Shown here: piece after piece, positions 49,960 to 57,554 of the stretch | Layout of the letters: the number at the start of each line of letters is the position of its first letter | Position numbering within the stretch: position 1 is the stretch's first letter | Origin: a virus | Lineage: Duplodnaviria > Caudoviricetes | DNA length: 64,000 nt | IMG/VR virus record: IMGVR_UViG_3300009155_000035 | Reading direction: 5' to 3' (one strand) | The notes under the pieces: generated by a model | Databases searched by the model: none | Told to the model about the DNA's origin: nothing | Seen by the model: only the letters and a program-made list of their open reading frames with translations | Program-made: the position numbers and the translations under genes

Positions 49960-51396
49960 ATGCTTAAAGAATACACAGTTGATATACAAAGATTGTTTTT
50001 GGAGATGATGTTAGAGGACGCACAAAGTTATGTGCGTGTACAGAACATCTACAACCCACAGAACTTTGACAGGAGTTTACGTGCTGCCGCCGAGTTTATC
50101 AAAGAGCATACTGACAAGTTCAAGACCATGCCCGAGCGTACACAGATTGCAGCCGCAACCAGTGTAAAGCTTCAGCCGGTGCCAGATCTCAACGAAGGTC
50201 ACTTTGAATGGTTTATGCAAGAGTTTGAAAGTTTTACCAAGCGCCAAGAACTTGAAAGGGCTATTCTTAAAGCGGCAGACTTGCTGGAAAAAGGTGAGTT
50301 TGACCCCGTTGAGAAACTGATCAAAGATGCTGTTCAAATATCCCTGACCAAGGACCTGGGCACAGATTTTTGGCTAGATCCGGAATCCATGTTCAGTCGA
50401 TACTTTGATGCAGGTGGACAAGTAAGCACAGGATGGCCACAGCTGGACAAGTTGCTGTATGGTGGATTCAGTCGAGGTGAACTCAACATCTTTGCAGGTG
50501 GATCGGGATCAGGCAAGTCCTTGGTCATGATGAACATTGCGTTGAATTGGGTACAACTGGGACTGCATGGTGTTTATATCACGCTTGAACTTAGTGAAGA
50601 GCTCACAGGTCTGCGCACAGCGGCCATGTTGACTAACATGAGCACCAAGGACATTCGCAAAGACAAAGAAACTGCATCGTTAAAAATCAAATTGGTTGGT
50701 AAAAAAGCAGGTAGTTATCAAGTCAAGGCATTGCCAGCACAAAGCAATATCAATGATATTCGCGCATTCTTGAAAGAGTATCAAATCAAAACAGGACGCA
50801 AAGTAGACTTCATGATGATTGACTACTTGGACTTGTTGATGCCGGTTAGTGCCAAAGTCAGTCCCAACGACTTGTTTGTTAAAGACAAGTACGTGAGTGA
50901 GGAACTGCGTAACTTGGCCAAAGAGCTGGGTATCTTGATGGTAACAGCTTCGCAGTTGAACCGAAGTGCTGTGGAAGAAATTGAATTTGATCACTCGCAC
51001 ATTTCGGGCGGTATCTCCAAGATCAACACAGCAGACAACGTGTTCGGCATCTTTACCAGTCGTGCCATGAAAGAGCGTGGCAAGTATCAGATCCAGTGTA
51101 TGAAGAGTCGTAGTTCTACAGGTGTGGGACAAAAGATTGATTTAGACTACAACATGGAAACCATGCGTATTACAGACAGTGGTGACGCAGAAGGCGAGGG
51201 TTTCAGTAAAAAGCCTTCAATGAATATCATGGAAAGTATCAAGGCAAAGGCCAGTGTTAGTGCGAGTACCAGTGAAACAAGTTCAACATCCTGGGAAAGA
51301 GCCACAGGAACGCCAGCGTGGGAACAACCTCCCAAGGTAGAAGCTGAAGTTCAAAGTGCAAAACTAAAACAGTTGCTTGGACAAATTAAAAAATAA
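49960..51396 (+). CDS. Replicative helicase (T4 gp41/DnaB-like)
   Basis: STGW..LD, GGSGSGKS, TLELSE, IDYLDL, TASQLNR, ISKINTAD, KSR. Confidence 0.95.
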   Translation: MLKEYTVDIQRLFLEMMLEDAQSYVRVQNIYNPQNFDRSLRAAAEFIKEHTDKFKTMPERTQIAAATSVKLQPVPDLNEGHFEWFMQEFESFTKRQELERAILKAADLLEKGEFDPVEKLIKDAVQISLTKDLGTDFWLDPESMFSRYFDAGGQVSTGWPQLDKLLYGGFSRGELNIFAGGSGSGKSLVMMNIALNWVQLGLHGVYITLELSEELTGLRTAAMLTNMSTKDIRKDKETASLKIKLVGKKAGSYQVKALPAQSNINDIRAFLKEYQIKTGRKVDFMMIDYLDLLMPVSAKVSPNDLFVKDKYVSEELRNLAKELGILMVTASQLNRSAVEEIEFDHSHISGGISKINTADNVFGIFTSRAMKERGKYQIQCMKSRSSTGVGQKIDLDYNMETMRITDSGDAEGEGFSKKPSMNIMESIKAKASVSASTSETSSTSWERATGTPAWEQPPKVEAEVQSAKLKQLLGQIKK

Positions 51397-52406
51397 TGTA
51401 CGCATATCAAGATATACGTCATGTGCATTTAGAAATTTCTAGTCGGTGCAATGCAGAGTGCCCGCTGTGTCCTAGAAATTTTTATGGATATCCCTACAAT
51501 GATGGGTACATTGAGCATGATATGACATTGGGTGAAGCACAACGTATATTCTCGGTTGATTTTATCAAACAGTTGGGCGCAGTACAAATCAATGGTAACT
51601 TTGGCGACATCGTCATGAATCATGATGCTATCTCCATTGTTGAATATTTGCGTAGTCATAACAATGTCATGGACATCACTGTTACCACAAACGCTGGCGC
51701 CAGAGATAAAAAATTCTGGCGAGAACTGGCAAGATTACGATGCCGTGTTATTTTTTGTATTGAGGGGTTTGAAGACACTCATCATCTCTACAGACAAAAT
51801 ACACGCTATGAAGTCGTTATAAAAAACGCCAAGACATTTATTGACGCGGGCGGTACAGCTACCTGGAAAATGATAGACTTTGCGCATAACAAGCATCAGC
51901 AAGAACCAGCTCGCCAACTATCTAAAGACATGGGGTTTAAGAACTTTCTTTTGGTAGATTACGGACGAGATACTGCCCCAGTATTTGACCACAGTGGCAA
52001 TTTAAAACACGTCATTGGCAACCCCACAGAGACAAATTTTAAAAAAATGTTTTTTACGCGAACTGTCAACAGAGTATTTCTTAAAGATATCATTGATGAT
52101 AGAACCCCTGCTCCAATCAGTTGTGCAGTCAAGGGATCAAGTTCAGTGTACGTGTCCAGTACCGGTGATGCGTACCCATGTTGTTTCTTGGGATTTAATC
52201 CCAAAACATATGGGCATGGTAATTATCATGCCGCTGCCAACAAACAAATATCTGAATTAATTTACGAAAACAATGCTATTGAACATGGGCTAGAACATGC
52301 TATTAAATGGTTTGATAATATTGTAAAGGCCTGGGAAATACCCGACTTCCTCAGTGGCCGCCCAATCATTTGTCATGACTATTGTTCCAAAAACGGTAAA
52401 TATTGA
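51396..52406 (+). CDS. Radical SAM protein with C-terminal SPASM/twitch-like Cys
   Basis: SRCNAECPLC, NGNFGD, TTN, C-terminal C...YPCC...C...C. Confidence 0.85.
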   Translation: MYAYQDIRHVHLEISSRCNAECPLCPRNFYGYPYNDGYIEHDMTLGEAQRIFSVDFIKQLGAVQINGNFGDIVMNHDAISIVEYLRSHNNVMDITVTTNAGARDKKFWRELARLRCRVIFCIEGFEDTHHLYRQNTRYEVVIKNAKTFIDAGGTATWKMIDFAHNKHQQEPARQLSKDMGFKNFLLVDYGRDTAPVFDHSGNLKHVIGNPTETNFKKMFFTRTVNRVFLKDIIDDRTPAPISCAVKGSSSVYVSSTGDAYPCCFLGFNPKTYGHGNYHAAANKQISELIYENNAIEHGLEHAIKWFDNIVKAWEIPDFLSGRPIICHDYCSKNGKY

Positions 52407-52422
52407 ACAAAGAGACGGTATC

Positions 52423-52680
52423 ATGCAAAAGAAAACTCGCAGTATTCTCGAAGAGCTAGACTCAATATATCAAGAACGTCAGCAGACCCGCGATCGACAA
52501 TACATTATTGAAAGTCGTGCTAGCAATGTCATTGCCAGTGCTATTCGTTTAATTGAACAAATTGAATCTACATTTACACCCGAGCAAGCAGATAATTTAA
52601 ATCGAAAATTGCTAAACGCAATTAGAGACCGAGATCCTGGTAAATTTATTAGAACCGTGAGACGTACCAATGCTGGCTGA
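52423..52680 (+). CDS. Small late hypothetical protein
   Basis: TAAATA at 52397-52402; start moved to 52423. Confidence 0.55.
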   Translation: MQKKTRSILEELDSIYQERQQTRDRQYIIESRASNVIASAIRLIEQIESTFTPEQADNLNRKLLNAIRDRDPGKFIRTVRRTNAG

Positions 52681-54595
52681 AGGCGGTAATGTTTTTAAAG
52701 ATCCTGCCGGTAATCCAGCAACTCAGCGTATAAATCAAGCTGATGTTCCTGCGACTATCGCATTTGTAGAAAAAGTACTGGGGATGAAATTCCCACAAGA
52801 GCGTTGGCTAGGATCAACTGGCCGTAAGCCCACATCTGGTGACCTTGACCTTGGGGTAGATACTAGCGAAGTAACCAAAGATCAAATTGCTGACAAGTTA
52901 ACACAATGGGCACAGTCACAAAAACAAGATCCACGTGAATGGGTTAAAAAAGCAGGCGAAGTACATTTTAAAACACCCATTGCTGGTGATGCTAAAAAAG
53001 GTTTTGTGCAAACAGATTTTATGTTCTTTCCCAATCTTGATTGGGGAACATTTTTTTATGGCGGCGCCGAAGGATCTAACTACAAGGGCATGAACCGCAA
53101 TGTTCTAATGAGCAGTATTGCTAAATCCCTAGGACTCAAAGTGGGCGCCAATGGTATGTTCAGTCGTACTACAAATCAACTGGTCAAGGGCGGCATGGAC
53201 CCCGACTATGTGGCTCGAGTATTGCTAGGATCAAATGCAACTAAAGAAAATCTCAAGAATGTTGAAAGCATTTATGCCGCACTAGAAAATGATCCAGAGC
53301 GTGATGCCAAGCTGAAAGATTTTAGAGAATATCTTGCACGAGAAGGACTCACTGAACCTGGTGCACCTGTGCAAGAAAATGAAGTCAGCTTTATGTCTCG
53401 CTTACGTGATAGAATTGTAAATCAAGGCTATCACATTATCATTGAATCCGAAGCTCCGGCCAAGAAGAAAGATCCAAGGATCCCACATCCTGAAGACGCT
53501 TTCTTCTTAGGTGGTAGTGCAGCCGCATCAAAAGCCATACAAGGCATGGAAAATGCTATTGCCAATGCTGGTAAAACCACTATCAAGTGGGATGGTAAAC
53601 CTGCATTGATCTGGGGCAGATTGCCCAACGGCAAACTAGCAGTCATGGACAAATATATGTTTGACGCCAAGTATCCGGCACAAAGTCCCGAAGACTGGGT
53701 CAAGTATGATCAACAAAAAAAATCTGGTAATTTAAGAAGCGACTTGTATCCCAAGCTCAAAGCCATATGGCCAGGATTAGATGCTGCCACAATAGGCCCT
53801 GGCTTTTATTGGGGTGACTTGATGTGGGCCGGAGAACTACAACCACAAGGCGGTAAGTACACATTCAAACCTAATTTTGTACAGTATTCAATCCCAACCA
53901 ATAGCGAACTAGGTCAAACTATTCCCGGCAAAACTGGTGGCATTGTTGTTCATCAGCAGTTTGCTAATTTAGGCGATCAAGTAGCCCAGCCTTGGGATGG
54001 TCAGGGCTTGCAGAATGTTCGTGGAGGGGTTGATATTATCAAGCCCAATATTGGCATTACATTTAAACTAAAGCCACCTGCAAAATTAATTGCTGCCGCA
54101 AAACAAGCGGTTGGCACATACGGCGCAGCCGTGGATCAACTGTTGAATTCTCTACCGGCTAGCACACGAGCACAAATGCAGACCTATTTCAATCAACGCA
54201 TTATTGGCGCTACAAAATTCAGTATGCCCAACTGGTTGAAAACCAAGTCTAGTGCTCGTCAGTACAGTGAACTAGTAACTGGTAATCCAGACGTCAATGG
54301 ACAATACAATGCCAAAACTGGCAATATCCCCGGCAAACTCTACACACTTGACGCCAACAACAAACCAGTGCCCAGTCCGGCTCACCTGGGACTGCTGGCA
54401 ATTTGGAACTCAATATACAATTTAAAATTAAACCTGGCACAACAGCTTGAACAACAAGTACAAGGGCTAGAGCAAAGCACTGGTGGTCAAGCCGAGGGCG
54501 AAGGATTTGTTGTTCCTACACCAACTGGGCTAGTCAAGTTGGTGAATCGTGGGGTATTTTCAGCAGGAAATGCCGCACAAAATAATCCCAAGTAA
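52670..54595 (+). CDS. Pol-beta-type nucleotidyltransferase fused to ATP-dependent ligase-like domain
   Basis: LGSTG...SGDLDL (GS..DxD) and VQTDF; C-domain KWDG (motif I), WGD (III), EGFVV (IV), LVKLV (V). Confidence 0.6.
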   Translation: MLAEGGNVFKDPAGNPATQRINQADVPATIAFVEKVLGMKFPQERWLGSTGRKPTSGDLDLGVDTSEVTKDQIADKLTQWAQSQKQDPREWVKKAGEVHFKTPIAGDAKKGFVQTDFMFFPNLDWGTFFYGGAEGSNYKGMNRNVLMSSIAKSLGLKVGANGMFSRTTNQLVKGGMDPDYVARVLLGSNATKENLKNVESIYAALENDPERDAKLKDFREYLAREGLTEPGAPVQENEVSFMSRLRDRIVNQGYHIIIESEAPAKKKDPRIPHPEDAFFLGGSAAASKAIQGMENAIANAGKTTIKWDGKPALIWGRLPNGKLAVMDKYMFDAKYPAQSPEDWVKYDQQKKSGNLRSDLYPKLKAIWPGLDAATIGPGFYWGDLMWAGELQPQGGKYTFKPNFVQYSIPTNSELGQTIPGKTGGIVVHQQFANLGDQVAQPWDGQGLQNVRGGVDIIKPNIGITFKLKPPAKLIAAAKQAVGTYGAAVDQLLNSLPASTRAQMQTYFNQRIIGATKFSMPNWLKTKSSARQYSELVTGNPDVNGQYNAKTGNIPGKLYTLDANNKPVPSPAHLGLLAIWNSIYNLKLNLAQQLEQQVQGLEQSTGGQAEGEGFVVPTPTGLVKLVNRGVFSAGNAAQNNPK

Positions 54596-54615
54596 CTGTT
54601 TTTTTAGAGATCGAC

Positions 54616-54621
54616 TAAATA
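54616..54621 (+). promoter_or_regulatory. Late promoter (TAAATA)
   Basis: TAAATA, short leader hairpin GACC/GGTC, TAAGGAG RBS, ATG 54663. Confidence 0.65.
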
Positions 54622-54662
54622 AAAGCAGACCCCAAGTGGTCATATATTAAGGAGATTTAAAA

Positions 54663-55133
54663 ATGGCATATTTTCCACCTTTCAATGGTGACGCACAACC
54701 AGTATTTGCGTTAGACGTTAACAACGGTCCTCAGACCGGTAACATTGGTTCTACTGATGCGTTAGTTCAGCCTCAAGGCCCCAAGCTAGACTTCTTCAAA
54801 GTTCTAGTTAAAAACGGTTCTGCAACAGCAATTGATCTTCGCGATCAGTTGGGTAACTACAGCGGCGGCGGTACAGTGTTTAACCCAGGTGTTGTTGTTC
54901 AGATCAACCAACGTGTTCAACAAACTGCTACCATCGCTATCTACCAAGTAGAAGGCGCAAGCACTGGCCAGATCAGCTACGCTATCTACCCACAAGATGC
55001 TTACACTGCTTCCACATTGCAGACAGCTATTCAAGCTCTTGGCAACATTCAGATCACAGCATCTGATGGTACTGTGACTGGTGTTGACGTTAGCGGCACA
55101 ATTGTTACTGAGCCTGGCTTCCAACTAGCTTAA
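54663..55133 (+). CDS. Probable abundant virion protein (monocistronic late gene)
   Basis: Own late promoter, strong RBS, terminator; G/T/V/Q-rich 156 aa. Confidence 0.5.
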   Translation: MAYFPPFNGDAQPVFALDVNNGPQTGNIGSTDALVQPQGPKLDFFKVLVKNGSATAIDLRDQLGNYSGGGTVFNPGVVVQINQRVQQTATIAIYQVEGASTGQISYAIYPQDAYTASTLQTAIQALGNIQITASDGTVTGVDVSGTIVTEPGFQLA

Positions 55134-55154
55134 TCGATTATACGTCGACCACAC

Positions 55155-55181
55155 AACCCTGGATTTATTCCAGGGTTTTTT
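55155..55181 (+). terminator. Rho-independent terminator
   Basis: AACCCTGGA-tttat-TCCAGGGTT plus T tract. Confidence 0.8.
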
Positions 55182-55202
55182 CTTGTCCGTTAAATAACAG
55201 AC

Positions 55203-55634
55203 ATGACTTATCGTATCTTTTGCAAAACTAAATTTGACATCACAGCCACTGGAGTGCGCAGTCATTATAGATCTGCACGTATGCCTTTTAAGGACGAACA
55301 GGGACGGGATATTATTGACCAATCTACATGGAATCGCTCACGGAACAAACAACGTAATTGGGAAACTGTTAATCAAGTCATAAGCCTGCGCACATTGCCA
55401 GAGAATATCAATGCACCTAAGCAGGTGATTGTGGATGATGTATCGTTTTGGGAGTTTAGTTTTGATATTGACAATATTGAAACAACCACATTAGATGACA
55501 ACCCAGTTGGTGCGCTAGTACGAGACTGTCAGGGAGTACCAATGATACTAGGGCTTGACGAAACACCTGGACTAGCACCAATGCTTGATGCAAGCATTGA
55601 TTCTAATATATGGTTCTGGACCAACTTAGAATAA
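55203..55634 (+). CDS. Late hypothetical protein
   Basis: TAAATA at 55191-96; 143 aa. Confidence 0.55.
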   Translation: MTYRIFCKTKFDITATGVRSHYRSARMPFKDEQGRDIIDQSTWNRSRNKQRNWETVNQVISLRTLPENINAPKQVIVDDVSFWEFSFDIDNIETTTLDDNPVGALVRDCQGVPMILGLDETPGLAPMLDASIDSNIWFWTNLE

Positions 55635-55642
55635 ATAATTCT

Positions 55643-55906
55643 ATGTCCGACACCACTGAAATTGAAAAAAAGAGCCTTGAAGCGCACGTTGAATTGTGTG
55701 CTGAAAGATACCGCCAATTAGAATTCACTATTTCTGATATCAAAGCAGATGTGGCCGAACTAAAAAACATACTAAATGTGGTGCGTGATAAATTGTCTGA
55801 GATGAGTGACAAGAGAAACAATCAACTTATTACCTGGGCCATTAGTATAATGAGTATTATGCTTGGTACCATTGGTTACTTGACTGTTAATTACGTTTTA
55901 AAATAA
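55643..55906 (+). CDS. Coiled-coil protein with C-terminal TM helix (XhlA/holin-like)
   Basis: EAHVELCAERY coiled coil; LITWAISIMSIMLGTIGYL hydrophobic tail; TAAATA at 55632-37. Confidence 0.5.
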   Translation: MSDTTEIEKKSLEAHVELCAERYRQLEFTISDIKADVAELKNILNVVRDKLSEMSDKRNNQLITWAISIMSIMLGTIGYLTVNYVLK

Positions 55907-55907
55907 C

Positions 55908-56438
55908 ATGAATATAACAGACAACACACTTCGACAATTAGAACAAGTGCTGTCGGCTGACTTTGAATCAGCCAAACAAAATTTAATTTTTAGTACTGAA
56001 AACGGTTATCAAGTTTTTGATCGTTATACCATATTAAAAAAACAAAATAATGTAACTGTTACAGAATACACTGGTGATCCTCTGCCTTTTACCAGCGTGA
56101 GAACAGCACTGAGCTGGTGCATAGCAGACAAATACAATCAGATTAAACTAGCCAACGAAATCAAACGATTAGATGAAAAGCGTTGGCGATTACGAAACGA
56201 CGTGAGCTTTTCTCAAAAGCTCACTAGTAGATTTAAGGACCCCGGCACTCGGGAAACCGCACTACTTAAATTAGAAACCAAACAAGCTTTGCTTAACAAT
56301 GTAGAAATTGGTTTAGAAAAATGTGCAAACTTAGCTAAATATTGGCAACTACGGGGATTCAACGATGAAATTGAACGAACTAAGCGCAGTGCGCAAAACA
56401 GAGACAATCGCTCGAGTATTCGAGTCTTACCTAGGTAA
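55908..56438 (+). CDS. Hypothetical protein
   Basis: 176 aa, operonic. Confidence 0.5.
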   Translation: MNITDNTLRQLEQVLSADFESAKQNLIFSTENGYQVFDRYTILKKQNNVTVTEYTGDPLPFTSVRTALSWCIADKYNQIKLANEIKRLDEKRWRLRNDVSFSQKLTSRFKDPGTRETALLKLETKQALLNNVEIGLEKCANLAKYWQLRGFNDEIERTKRSAQNRDNRSSIRVLPR

Positions 56439-57219
56439 GAAGGTAGACTTTCAGGCATTGTCAAACACACAGGCTCAACACATGTTACGCCGTGTTAGAT
56501 CTTTGATCAGTGAGCAGAGAAGTTCATCGGGCATTTACAAGAGCGAGAAAAATCCTGCTTACTTGAAATTAATGATGATGGAACAAGCTTTGGCCAGTCA
56601 TATCAATGAAGTTGGCACCACGCCAATGGCAATTGATGTCAACGATCCAAAGACCAAACAGATCATGCAAAAAGCCGGTAATGGTCAAACACTGAACCCT
56701 GAAGAACAAAAAACCATGAACGCTATTGCTCTCATGAAAAAAGAGGGCAAGAAAGCAGGCATGAAGCGCATGGTCAAAGAAAGCGAAATTCAACAAGCTC
56801 AAGTTGTTCTAGCAAGCCAAGACATGCTGGATCGTATTCAGAAAATGACCGAAGATATCAGCGAAATGCAATTCAAAGATCTACCAGCATTGACTGACAG
56901 TATCAAGAATGACATGGGAACCGAACAAGCCACTGCATATCAAGCACAAGCCAGTGCCGCATTGAGCACATTACTAAGTGCATTGCAACAAGGCAAAACT
57001 CAACTAGAAGCGGCTCAGGGTGCTATTACTGGCACTGGTACTGACCTTGCAGTGCCAGGCGCTGATGATGACCTGGGTGCTGATCTAGACGCTGACGTAG
57101 ATGCAGCCGCCTTGGCAGCACCAGACATGGGCGGAGATGAAGAAGATATATCAGTGGATGCTGATATTGACGCAGAAATTGAGCCAGCATCATCCCTGGG
57201 TAGAGAACGCAGAAAATGA
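56365..57219 (+). CDS. Putative prohead core/scaffold-like protein
   Basis: Helical, very acidic C-terminus ending GRERRK; MKLNEL start; internal INE and VKE sites. Confidence 0.4.
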   Translation: MKLNELSAVRKTETIARVFESYLGKKVDFQALSNTQAQHMLRRVRSLISEQRSSSGIYKSEKNPAYLKLMMMEQALASHINEVGTTPMAIDVNDPKTKQIMQKAGNGQTLNPEEQKTMNAIALMKKEGKKAGMKRMVKESEIQQAQVVLASQDMLDRIQKMTEDISEMQFKDLPALTDSIKNDMGTEQATAYQAQASAALSTLLSALQQGKTQLEAAQGAITGTGTDLAVPGADDDLGADLDADVDAAALAAPDMGGDEEDISVDADIDAEIEPASSLGRERRK

Positions 57220-57554
57220 GAATTGACGAAGTAGCTAGCCAGCCAGATACGGCCAGGCTGGCCGCTTTGGCAGAGTTCCTTCTAGGACGCAGTAATGATA
57301 CAAATGCGTCTAAAACAATTTCTACCGAAGCATTTATAAATTTAGCTGGCGACATGGGTATACCTTTGACTCATCAGCAATTGGTTAAATTTAGTCAAAT
57401 GCCTCCACTGAATGGCATCATTGCCAATGTTGAACCAAATCAGATAACTTTCAAAGGTGCCGAGCCCGATGTTGACGATTCAGACATGAGCATCGACCAA
57501 GCTCGCGCCACTGTTGATAAAATGGCCAAAAGAGCCGCCAGCAAAGGAATATAA
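57216..57554 (+). CDS. Hypothetical protein (MRIDEV start)
   Basis: ATGA overlap, 112 aa. Confidence 0.5.
   Translation: MRIDEVASQPDTARLAALAEFLLGRSNDTNASKTISTEAFINLAGDMGIPLTHQQLVKFSQMPPLNGIIANVEPNQITFKGAEPDVDDSDMSIDQARATVDKMAKRAASKGI

What the first reader, a model, noticed from the sequence alone, without database searches (positions are those of the whole stretch)
52670..54595. Late, probably virion-packaged Pol-beta nucleotidyltransferase fused to an RNA-ligase-like domain
Seen: an N-domain with GS...DLD and a third Asp (QTDF); a C-domain with covalent nucleotidyltransferase motifs KWDG (53585-96), WGD, EGFVV and VKLV. It starts MLAE|GG and has PVQE|N and IIIE|S sites in the linker; TAAATA lies upstream of the operon. 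Established: KxDG is the adenylated-lysine motif of ATP-dependent ligases, and Pol-beta NTases add nucleotides to RNA ends or proteins or make cyclic signals. Inference: a packaged, protease-separated pair of enzymes injected at infection to repair or re-tail cleaved tRNA/RNA (anti-anticodon-nuclease), or to nucleotidylate host proteins.
Basis: partly seen in the sequence, partly recalled or inferred. Interest (0 to 1): 0.75.

Follow-up and report, generated by a model that had tools for sequence, protein, structure and literature searches.

The report
Phage polymerase-X-like enzyme fused to ligase
A giant freshwater phage makes one 641-residue protein that joins a miniature polymerase-beta/X-type nucleotide-adding enzyme to an unusual ligase, very probably a late-made nucleic-acid "fill and seal" repair kit that is loaded into the virus head and cut in two; both halves belong to uncharacterised, phage-only families.

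Summary
AlphaFold models (pLDDT 90 and 94) show (i) an N-domain whose ten best PDB matches are all family-X DNA polymerases (Pol beta Z 10.6, ASFV Pol X Z 9.6), covering palm plus thumb, with invariant GS/D58/D60/D116; and (ii) a C-domain (Pfam DUF6267) whose 22 best matches are all ATP-dependent RNA/DNA ligases (Z 5-7.2), with invariant KxDG, EG and K motifs, no OB domain and a ~150-aa helical insert. The two domains occur alone, fused in both orders, or as neighbouring genes (PA5oct gp256/gp253, Atu_ph07 AUZ94878/AUZ94877). Packaging is supported indirectly: the PA5oct N-domain homologue and the homologue of the upstream small gene are mass-spectrometry virion proteins; a TAAATA late-type box precedes the operon in 66/66 relatives; each domain is always preceded by (L/I)-x-E, the T4 head-protease site, and stand-alone homologues carry T4-capsid-targeting-like leaders. 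Substrate (RNA versus DNA) is unresolved. It is a new variant of the known Pol-beta-NTase + RNA-ligase repair pairing (RlaP-Rnl), not a member of RlaP, PolX or any named ligase family by sequence. Other first-stage readers of this scan noted the same ORF in overlapping windows.

The parts
52397..52402 (+). TAAATA box, T4-late-promoter-like -10 element of the operon
   Evidence: 26 nt upstream of ATG 52423; present at -22..-31 in 66/66 related loci, background 3.7%; same box 21-29 nt upstream of tail-tube (6326) and fibre-like (59595) genes in the window
52423..52680 (+). small 85-aa gene, homologue of PA5oct gp259 virion structural protein; translationally coupled to the fusion gene
   Evidence: 41% identity, E 3e-18 to PA5oct gp259; phrog_11854 virion structural protein E 3e-14; stop overlaps ATG of the next gene; present in 70/80 related loci directly upstream
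52670..52681 (+). MLAE leader ending in an (L/I)-x-E site before G5-G6-N-V-F
   Evidence: In 209 occurrences of the N-domain P1 is E in 207/208 and P3 is L/I in 205/208 whatever lies upstream (0 to >700 aa); PA5oct gp253 and Atu_ph07 AUZ94877 start directly at M-(S/G)-G
52682..53344 (+). N-domain (aa 5-225): family-X-polymerase-like palm + thumb nucleotidyltransferase plus small helical bundle; G48-S49, D58, D60, D116 catalytic set
   Evidence: AF2 pLDDT 90; Foldseek PDB top 50 all Pol mu/lambda/beta/TdT/PolX, E 1e-4; VIA Z 10.6-7.4 for ten PolX chains over 150-178 aa, next tier Z<=6.8 over ~85 aa; AFDB clusters agree
53345..53455 (+). inter-domain linker (aa 226-262) with conserved helix RLRDRIVNQG and sites LTE229, VQE236, IIE259
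   Evidence: low pLDDT 51-66; R244 L245 R246 R248 G253 E259 invariant; the only four [LIVM]xE motifs of the protein are E4 and these three, none inside the domains, 4.4 expected, p 0.005
53456..54592 (+). C-domain (aa 263-641), Pfam DUF6267: OB-less covalent nucleotidyltransferase (ligase) fold; H273-x-E275-D276, motif I K306-W-D-G, III G382-D383, IIIa F399, IV E611-G612, V K623; ~150-aa helical insert (aa ~470-595) between IIIa and IV
   Evidence: PF19782 E 4e-27; AF2 pLDDT 94; VIA top 22 all ligases: NgrRnl Z 7.2, REL1 6.7, T4 Rnl1 6.4, Rnl3 6.3, Trl1 6.2, DNA ligases 6.2-5.0; BFVD and AFDB hits include 'RNA ligase' entries; invariant columns
54616..55177 (+). downstream conserved 156-aa gene (54663-55133) with its own TAAATA box (54616) and terminator-like hairpin (55155-55177); end of the transcription unit
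   Evidence: conserved in 68/80 loci; a 510-nt lake metatranscriptome contig covers 54643-55152

Best explanation
The gene encodes a late-expressed two-enzyme nucleic-acid end-repair polyprotein. The N-domain is a minimal polymerase-X-like nucleotidyltransferase (palm + thumb, like ASFV Pol X) that extends a 3'-OH by one or a few nucleotides, probably guided by the opposite strand; the C-domain is an ATP-type ligase that becomes adenylylated on K306 and seals the resulting 3'-OH/5'-phosphate break. Shown: folds, catalytic motifs, their conservation, recurrent fusion/adjacency of the two families. Inferred: the precursor is made from a T4-late-type promoter together with head proteins, is loaded into the prohead, and is cut by the T4-type (S77) prohead protease after L2-A-E4 and I257-I-E259 (perhaps also E229/E236), so that two separate enzymes travel into the cell with the DNA and can act before any phage protein is made. 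I take the likeliest substrate to be cleaved host/phage RNA such as tRNA or a nick with a ribonucleotide 3' end (about 50%), with breaks or gaps in the incoming phage DNA second (about 35%).
For: Folds and motifs. Functional linkage: among 150 cluster representatives 39 are N>C fusions, 3 C>N, the rest single domains or larger polyproteins; separate neighbouring genes in PA5oct (gp256 ligase-like, BFVD E 3.6e-5; gp253 NTase, hhalign 99.1%, E 1.8e-18) and overlapping genes in Atu_ph07 (AUZ94878 'RNA ligase', PF09414 E 0.002; AUZ94877). Late/virion: TAAATA box 66/66 and before tail genes; PA5oct gp253 and gp259 are ESI-MS/MS virion proteins in the record (method PMC7318152); PA5oct and Atu_ph07 encode Peptidase_S77; (L/I)xE invariably precedes both domains (189/197 versus 19% expected), stand-alone DUF6267 proteins begin with leaders such as MKLFEFVQFLTE that resemble the T4 capsid-targeting sequence (T4 CTS from my own knowledge), and the window itself has MKTFAQYLTE-type leaders; [LIVM]xE is absent inside the domains. 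RNA leaning: no OB domain, nearest structures are nick-sealing RNA ligases, relatives keep a separate canonical PF01068 DNA ligase, and Pol-beta NTase + RNA ligase is an established repair guild (RlaP; PMC7824862, PMC12776372). Identical sequence is present in a lake metatranscriptome.
Against: No direct evidence that this protein is packaged or cleaved; its own leader is only MLAE, and the helicase of the same window also starts MLKE, so a 4-residue leader alone means little. PA5oct gp256 (ligase-like) is not flagged as a virion protein, and the PA5oct particle proteome also contained 'virion-unrelated enzymes'. The gene lies in a replication/nucleotide-metabolism block next to primase, helicase and an exonuclease, and cyanophage DUF6267 genes lie beside gp41/uvsX without a CTS-like leader. 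The best structural relatives of the N-domain are DNA polymerases, which argues for DNA. Ligase Z-scores (5-7) are modest and RNA and DNA ligases are statistically tied. No polynucleotide kinase or 2',3'-cyclic phosphodiesterase was seen in the block. The metatranscriptome contigs may derive from DNA.
Confidence: 0.5

Rival explanations
1. Virion-borne or early-acting DNA repair kit: the PolX-like domain fills short gaps or extends ends in the incoming (sunlight- or nuclease-damaged) phage genome and the ligase seals them, as African swine fever virus does with its Pol X and ligase, or as bacterial LigD does in end joining (possibly with a ribonucleotide patch).
For: Ten best structural matches of the N-domain are family-X DNA polymerases with palm and thumb aligned; position in the primase-helicase-exonuclease block conserved in ~80 loci and, for DUF6267, beside gp41/uvsX in cyanophages and Melnitz; cyanophage P-HM1 has no PF01068 or PF01653 DNA ligase, so DUF6267 is its only ligase-like protein.
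Against: The ligase domain has no OB fold, which every characterised DNA ligase needs; relatives of this phage and PA5oct already carry a canonical 460-aa ATP DNA ligase; no 8-kDa/HhH DNA-binding modules; no glycosylase or AP endonuclease recognised in the block.
Confidence: 0.3
2. Ordinary cytoplasmic RNA-repair enzyme (RlaP-Rnl type), not packaged and not cleaved; the (L/I)xE-GG motif is simply part of the NTase fold and the linker glutamates are structural.
For: Established guild of Pol-beta NTase with RNA ligases in jumbo phages (PMC7824862); a second, unrelated NTase domain in P0140 also begins IVE-GG; cyanophage homologues lack leaders; T4 RNA repair enzymes are not packaged (own knowledge).
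Against: Residues 1-3 are disordered in the model and PA5oct/Atu_ph07 homologues lack L-x-E altogether, so the motif is not needed for the fold; P2 is free while P3 and P1 are fixed, as for a protease site; PA5oct gp253 is in the particle proteome; late-type promoter box.
Confidence: 0.15
3. Polyvalent anti-defence cargo with other chemistry: the NTase nucleotidylates a host protein or makes or caps a nucleotide signal, and the ligase-like domain adenylylates something other than a nucleic-acid end (for example works with the NMNAT-like partner in NAD+ turnover).
For: Larger homologues are 800-1300-aa polyproteins that add NT5C/HAD, NMNAT-like cytidylyltransferase, amidoligase, DUF5661, ParB-like and Tad3 (Thoeris inhibitor) domains; DUF6267 is fused or adjacent to a cytidylyltransferase in S-PM2 and P-HM1; Pol-beta NTases of polyvalent proteins were predicted to modify proteins (PMC5512222).
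Against: The thumb subdomain and PolX-like fold point to a polynucleotide primer; all five nucleotidyltransferase motifs of nucleic-acid ligases are kept; CD-NTases, MenT and ANT score only Z 4.7-5.8 over the palm.
Confidence: 0.05

Closest known systems
RlaP (PF10127) + RNA ligase repair pairs of bacteria and jumbo phages (Burroughs & Aravind 2016 as cited in PMC7824862; PfRlaP/PaRlaP biochemistry, PMC12776372)
   Same: A Pol-beta-superfamily nucleotidyltransferase genetically coupled to an ATP-dependent RNA-ligase-type enzyme; proposed order of action: restore lost 3' nucleotide(s), then seal.
   Different: No sequence relation of the N-domain to RlaP (no PF10127 hit; hhalign 0.1% against the Atu_ph07 RlaP); here the NTase has a PolX-type thumb; the ligase is DUF6267, not Rnl1/Rnl2/RtcB; the two are fused, late-promoter driven and probably head-packaged.
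African swine fever virus Pol X (174 aa) and its ligase
   Same: Minimal palm + thumb family-X enzyme without 8-kDa and fingers domains (Z 9.6, 157 of 176 residues aligned) working with a ligase; ASFV packs both in the virion (own knowledge).
   Different: About 15% identity, no Pfam PolX hit; extra helical bundle (aa 178-225); ASFV ligase has an OB domain, this one does not.
Nick-sealing RNA ligases: Naegleria NgrRnl (Rnl5), T. brucei REL1 and T4 Rnl2 (Rnl2 family), T4 Rnl1
   Same: Adenylyltransferase fold with motifs I, III, IIIa, IV, V; no OB domain; best structural matches (Z 7.2, 6.7, 5.5, 6.4).
   Different: No sequence-level match; conserved H-x-E-D ~30 aa before motif I; motif V has one lysine (K-L-V); ~150-aa helical module inserted between IIIa and IV instead of an N- or C-terminal accessory domain.
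T4 internal proteins and Alt: capsid-targeting sequence cargo cut by gp21 after (L/I)-x-E
   Same: (L/I)-x-E immediately before each mature domain; CTS-like leaders (M-K/R-x-x-E-F...L-x-E) on many homologues; late-type promoter; relatives encode the S77 protease.
   Different: Cargo here would be a pair of nucleic-acid enzymes released from one precursor; this phage's copy has only a 4-residue leader; nothing has been shown experimentally.
Polyvalent proteins of phages (Iyer et al. 2017, PMC5512222)
   Same: Relatives are multi-enzyme polypeptides of up to 1300 aa predicted to be delivered with the DNA.
   Different: The PolX-like and DUF6267 modules are not among the domains I found described there; domains here are separated by T4-protease-type sites rather than carrying their own peptidase.

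Membership tests
Pol-beta nucleotidyltransferase superfamily | hG[GS] loop followed by D-x-D and a third acidic residue on the palm sheet | tested here: met
   G48-S49-x8-D58-L-D60 and D116 invariant in 25-36 homologues; palm aligns with many superfamily members
Family X DNA polymerases | palm plus thumb (N-subdomain) architecture | tested here: met
   Ten PolX chains Z 7.4-10.6 over 149-178 residues, model 1/11-199 on Pol beta 99/140-335; other NTases align over ~85 residues only; Foldseek PDB and AFDB agree
Family X DNA polymerases | sequence membership (Pfam DNA_pol_B_palm/thumb, PROSITE PolX signature) | tested here: not met
   No Pfam hit on aa 1-262 at E<=1; PF14792 finds no homologue in five related phage records; GSTGRKPTSGDLD is one residue shorter than, and departs at two positions from, the PROSITE pattern as I recall it
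Family X DNA polymerases | 8-kDa dRP-lyase and HhH fingers domains; templated DNA synthesis | tested here: not met
   Domains absent (262-aa model), as in ASFV Pol X; activity not testable with these tools
RlaP (PF10127) | match to the family profile | tested here: not met
   No PF10127 hit; hhalign probability 0.1% against the Atu_ph07 RlaP found
Covalent nucleotidyltransferases (ATP/NAD ligases, capping enzymes) | motifs I (KxDG), III, IIIa, IV (EG), V (K) in order on the adenylyltransferase fold | tested here: met
   K306-W-D-G, G382-D383, F399, E611-G612, K623 invariant; top 22 VIA matches are ligases, Z 5.0-7.2, 144-197 aligned
Covalent nucleotidyltransferases (ATP/NAD ligases, capping enzymes) | lysine-AMP intermediate | not testable with these tools
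   needs alpha-32P-ATP/NAD+ labelling with K306A control
ATP-dependent DNA ligases / capping enzymes | OB-fold domain with motif VI after the NTase domain | tested here: not met
   Protein ends 18 residues after motif V; model has no OB barrel; PF01068 not hit
Named RNA ligase families (Rnl1 PF09511, Rnl2/Rnl5 PF09414, Rnl3) | match to a family profile and the family's accessory domain | tested here: not met
   Only DUF6267 is hit; PDB sequence and profile searches empty; accessory helical module is an insertion, not a terminal domain
Pfam DUF6267 (PF19782) | match above gathering score | tested here: met
   95.9 bits versus cut-off 27, aa 272-634 on profile 5-371/376
T4-type CTS cargo processed by the prohead protease | (L/I)-x-E site at the boundary of the mature protein | tested here: met
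T4-type CTS cargo processed by the prohead protease | ~10-residue capsid-targeting leader | tested here: inconclusive
   This copy has MLAE only; many homologues have 9-14-residue CTS-like leaders
T4-type CTS cargo processed by the prohead protease | S77 protease in the same genome; presence of the processed protein in virions | tested here: inconclusive
   Genome not held; protease present in PA5oct and Atu_ph07, not found on three incomplete related contigs; PA5oct gp253 in particle proteome; processing not testable here

The most novel reading that the evidence does not exclude
Giant T4-like freshwater phages (and, for the ligase half, marine cyanomyophages) pre-load their capsids with a polymerase-X-like enzyme and a new OB-less ligase, cut from one precursor, and inject them with the genome so that nucleic-acid breaks made by host defences (tRNA-cutting abortive-infection nucleases or nucleases that hit the entering DNA) are repaired without any new protein synthesis: a translation-independent counter-defence not described for any phage.
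Probability: 0.3. Interest if true: 0.85.

Novelty: new variant of a known kind. Interest (0 to 1): 0.68.

Why it matters
Two abundant phage-only enzyme families get a testable function: DUF6267, present next to gp41 in T4-like cyanophages and with no paper that names it, would be a ligase with a new architecture, and the N-domain would be a new bacteriophage branch of minimal PolX-like enzymes. If the pair is really packaged and injected, repair enzymes join Alt, the internal proteins and virion RNA polymerases as head cargo, and would explain how a phage can escape defences that stop translation or cut the entering genome. Small OB-less ligases and minimal polymerases are also of practical interest as reagents. 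PA5oct, a cultured model phage, has both genes, so the idea can be tested directly.

Tried and rejected
Sequence searches of the whole protein and of both domain profiles against PDB sequences gave nothing. Foldseek against PDB was too weak for the C-domain (best E 0.1); the exhaustive aligner was needed. BLASTP of the protein against PA5oct gp258 and gp257 (the structural proteins right after gp259) found no relation; the window's downstream genes have no BLAST match in the PA5oct or Atu_ph07 loci. No megablast relative in the phage collection. The window's genome is not held, so a prohead protease, gp55 or a second ligase could not be looked for in it; three related contigs (42-75% complete) showed no S77 protease, which proves nothing. 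Strict TATAAATA is not upstream of the operon. PA5oct supplementary proteome tables are not held, so peptide counts for gp253 could not be read. I considered that DUF6267 is the replicative DNA ligase of this phage and rejected it for the jumbo group because relatives carry a canonical PF01068 ligase. CD-NTase/cyclic-signal synthase and toxin-type NTase (MenT) readings were set aside because they match only the palm at Z about 5. I could not obtain a residue-level alignment to a PolX sequence, so the steric-gate (dNTP versus rNTP) position was not assigned. Only one RNA run held part of the stretch (share 0.22), as contigs, which cannot show timing, strand or ends.
Full report
OBSERVATION. The window carries an open reading frame at 52670-54595 on the + strand, 641 residues. 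Its ATG overlaps the stop codon of a small upstream gene (52423-52680) by 11 bases, so the two are translationally coupled.

WHAT THE WINDOW IS. The helicase next door is 45-50% identical to those of Pseudomonas phage PA5oct and Agrobacterium phage Atu_ph07, T4-like 'group 2.2' jumbo phages (PMC7824862). The window also has tail-tube, terminase, primase, radical-SAM, IscU/IscA, exonuclease and ribonucleotide reductase genes. No close relative is in the phage collection, but the protein has more than 3700 metagenomic homologues on contigs of up to 361 kb and a lake-water metatranscriptome holds identical sequence. Earlier notes of this scan call it an uncultured giant freshwater phage; other first-stage readers listed the same ORF in overlapping windows.

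THE N-DOMAIN. Pfam, PHROGs and PDB sequence searches see nothing in residues 1-262. An AlphaFold model built on 36 sequences has mean pLDDT 90; residues 4-230 are confident and 231-262 are a poorly placed linker with one helix. Foldseek against the PDB returns only family-X polymerases in its first 50 rows (Pol mu, lambda, beta, TdT, Thermus PolX; E about 1e-4, TM 0.42-0.47). The exhaustive aligner gives Pol beta Z 10.6 (164 residues, rmsd 3.4), Thermus PolX 10.2, TdT 9.9, Pol lambda 9.8, ASFV Pol X 9.6 (157 of its 176 residues), Pol mu 8.4 and Deinococcus PolX 7.4; all span model residues about 1/20 to 199, that is palm and thumb. The next tier (TUTases, GLD-2, CD-NTases, OAS, MenT, CCA enzymes) scores Z 6.8 or less and aligns only about 85 residues of the palm. 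AlphaFold-DB clusters give the same picture. So the domain is more specific than 'a Pol-beta NTase': it is a minimal palm + thumb enzyme of the ASFV Pol X type, with an extra helical bundle (178-225). By sequence it is not a PolX member (no Pfam hit; PF14792 finds no homologue in related records), and it is not RlaP, the known RNA-ligase-associated NTase (hhalign probability 0.1%).

THE C-DOMAIN. Residues 272-634 match Pfam DUF6267 (95.9 bits), a family that no paper in the library mentions. The model has pLDDT 94. Foldseek is weak (E about 0.1) although ligases lead the list; the exhaustive aligner places 22 ligases at the top: Naegleria NgrRnl Z 7.2 (185 residues), T. brucei REL1 6.7, T4 Rnl1 6.4, archaeal Rnl3 6.3, fungal Trl1 6.2, and DNA ligases from Sulfolobus, T4, human III/IV, ASFV at 6.2-5.0. 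These Z values are modest and RNA and DNA ligases are tied, but the family-wide invariance of K306-x-D-G, D383, F399, E611-G612 and K623 in the right order makes membership of the covalent nucleotidyltransferase superfamily secure. Unusual features: a conserved H273-x-E-D about 30 residues before motif I, a single lysine in motif V, no OB domain (the chain ends 18 residues after motif V), and a helical module of about 150 residues inserted between motifs IIIa and IV. BFVD and AFDB neighbours include entries named RNA ligase.

THE TWO FAMILIES BELONG TOGETHER. Among 150 representatives of 50%-identity clusters there are 39 N>C fusions, 3 C>N fusions, about 50 N-only and 35 C-only proteins. In PA5oct the two are separate genes three genes apart: gp256 (KIDG ... 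EGYVIRTPSMQVKIVDK; BFVD E 3.6e-5 to the C-domain model) and gp253 (hhalign 99.1%, E 1.8e-18 to the N-domain profile). In Atu_ph07 the N-domain homologue AUZ94877 overlaps the end of AUZ94878, a KLDG protein with a weak PF09414 RNA_ligase match that UniProt names RNA ligase. Fusion in both orders plus adjacency with three different ligase-type partners is the classical signature of enzymes that act in one pathway. Larger relatives are polyproteins of 800-1300 residues that add NMNAT-like cytidylyltransferase, HAD/NT5C phosphatase, ParB-like, DUF5661, amidoligase and Tad3 modules; in cyanophages DUF6267 is fused or adjacent to a cytidylyltransferase.

LATE AND PACKAGED? Four lines bear on this. 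(1) Promoter: TAAATA lies 26 nt before the small gene's ATG; the same box is at -22 to -31 in 66 of 66 related loci, where chance predicts 3.7%, and in the window it sits 21-29 nt before the tail-tube gene, a fibre-like gene and others. It resembles the T4 late -10 element TATAAATA (own knowledge); the exact octamer is absent. (2) Virion proteome of a relative: the RefSeq record of PA5oct marks gp253 (N-domain homologue) and its neighbours as 'structural protein, ESI-MS/MS', and gp259, the homologue of the small upstream gene (41% identity), as a virion structural protein; the study found 93 particle-associated products, a few of them judged virion-unrelated (PMC7318152). gp256, the ligase-like gene, is not so marked. 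(3) Protease sites: in 209 occurrences of the N-domain the residue before G-G-N-V/I-F is E in 207 of 208 and the residue three before is L or I in 205 of 208, while the middle residue and everything upstream vary freely, from a single Met to more than 700 residues of other domains. PA5oct gp253 and Atu_ph07 AUZ94877 begin directly M-S-G-N-A-F and M-G-G-R-A-F, and residues 1-3 are disordered in the model, so L-x-E is not part of the enzyme. Likewise 189 of 197 C-domains have (L/I)-x-E within 24 residues before H-x-E-D, against 19% expected. This is the T4 gp21 consensus (own knowledge), and PA5oct and Atu_ph07 encode the S77 protease. In the protein itself the only four [LIVM]-x-E motifs are E4, E229, E236 and E259; none lies inside the two domains, where 4.4 are expected (p 0.005); family-wide the depletion is milder, 2.2 against 3.6. 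(4) Leaders: stand-alone DUF6267 proteins start MKLFEFVQFLTE, MAKFEFIEFLNE, MRVHEFITE and the like, and some fusions start MRLNELQLVLAE, close to the T4 capsid-targeting sequence MKTYQEFIAE (own knowledge); the window has MKTFAQYLTE, MRANEFVTE and MRAREFVTE on other genes. Against: this copy has only MLAE, the helicase also starts MLKE, cyanophage copies lack leaders, and the gene sits in a replication block that is syntenic over about 80 loci: primase, helicase, variable genes, small gene, fusion, six conserved unknowns, IscU, IscA, exonuclease. I put packaging at roughly 60% and cleavage at E4 and E259 at roughly 50%.

MECHANISM AND SUBSTRATE. Shown: two intact catalytic domains of known chemistry. 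Inferred: the NTase adds one or a few nucleotides to a 3'-OH, the thumb suggesting that the opposite strand guides the choice; the ligase, adenylylated on K306, seals the 3'-OH/5'-phosphate junction. RNA is favoured by the OB-less, RNA-ligase-like domain, by the RlaP-Rnl precedent (PMC7824862; PMC12776372 shows RlaP adds one or two NMPs to damaged RNA), by HAD phosphatase partners that recall T4 Pnkp, and by the separate canonical DNA ligase in relatives and in PA5oct. DNA is favoured by the PolX-like fold, the replication-module position and the ASFV and LigD analogies; a ribonucleotide patch on DNA would reconcile both. P-HM1 has no recognisable DNA ligase at all, so in cyanophages DUF6267 might even serve replication. 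I commit to RNA or RNA-terminated breaks at about 50%, DNA at about 35%, other chemistry at about 15%.

NOVELTY. The concept (Pol-beta NTase plus ligase for end repair) and the concept of protease-processed head cargo are both known. New are the two families themselves, their fusion, the ligase architecture, and the prospect that repair enzymes are injected. Hence 'new variant of a known kind', interest 0.68.

Noticed in passing
window 54616-55177: The 156-aa gene after the fusion has its own TAAATA box (54616) and a 9-bp GC-rich hairpin plus T-run (55155-55177); a 510-nt lake metatranscriptome contig (depth 10) covers exactly 54643-55152. Conserved in 68/80 related loci, no family hit: possibly an abundant late or virion protein.
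   Followed up: partly
window 52423-57554: Gene block small-fusion-o156-o143-o98-o176-o284-o112 is kept in order in dozens of IMG/VR contigs between the helicase and IscU/IscA; o284 hits phrog_14154 (virion structural protein); o284 and o112 start MKLNEL and MRIDEV, like PA5oct gp254 MRLDEI.
   Followed up: partly
window 9460, 12265, 13384, 13752: Four genes near the head/tail module begin MKTFAQYLTE, MRTFKDYLTDAE, MRANEFVTE, MRAREFVTE: T4 capsid-targeting-sequence-like leaders.
   Followed up: no
window, + strand, 24 sites: TAAATA lies 10-29 nt upstream of 15 gene starts (tail tube 6326, 9460, ssb-like 18979, 33272, 45654, 52423, 56365, fibre-like 59595): a likely late-promoter -10 element of this phage group with consensus (A/C)TAAATA(A/T).
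   Followed up: partly
L002 (PA5oct NC_071039.1) 150524-151864 and 153120-153833: PA5oct gp256, annotated hypothetical, is a ligase-like protein (KIDG, EGYVI, KIV); gp253, annotated only 'structural protein', is a PolX-like nucleotidyltransferase. Neither is annotated as an enzyme.
   Followed up: yes
L001 (Atu_ph07 MF403008.1) 51340-53137: AUZ94878 (KLDG, weak PF09414) and AUZ94877 (PolX-like NTase) overlap by 11 nt; they are followed by seven similar-sized (~250 aa) hypothetical genes; Atu_ph07 also has a canonical RlaP at 154923-155339.
   Followed up: partly
L005 (P-HM1 NC_015280.1), whole record: No PF01068 or PF01653 DNA ligase is detectable in cyanophage P-HM1; its DUF6267 gene (PHM1_161, T4-GC 71) next to gp41, MazG and two cytidylyltransferase genes is the only ligase-like gene found.
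   Followed up: partly
proteins P0232, P0194, P0143, P0146 (metagenomic relatives): Polyproteins of 1000-1300 aa string together NMNAT-like (GRFQPFGxHH), HAD/NT5C, DUF5661, ParB-like, Tad3 (Thoeris inhibitor), amidoligase, a second ligase-like type (EGGAASHMSHPF...KIDG) and the PolX-like domain, each junction carrying (L/I)-x-E.
   Followed up: partly
L003 5215-5670, L004 2881-5595: Genes flanking DUF6267 in S-CRM01 (g131, MNFSEFLEAIE) and Melnitz (_15 MQGFKTFLSE, _16 MLTLINFSKYITE, _17 MKKFSELTSELIE) also start with CTS-like leaders.
   Followed up: no
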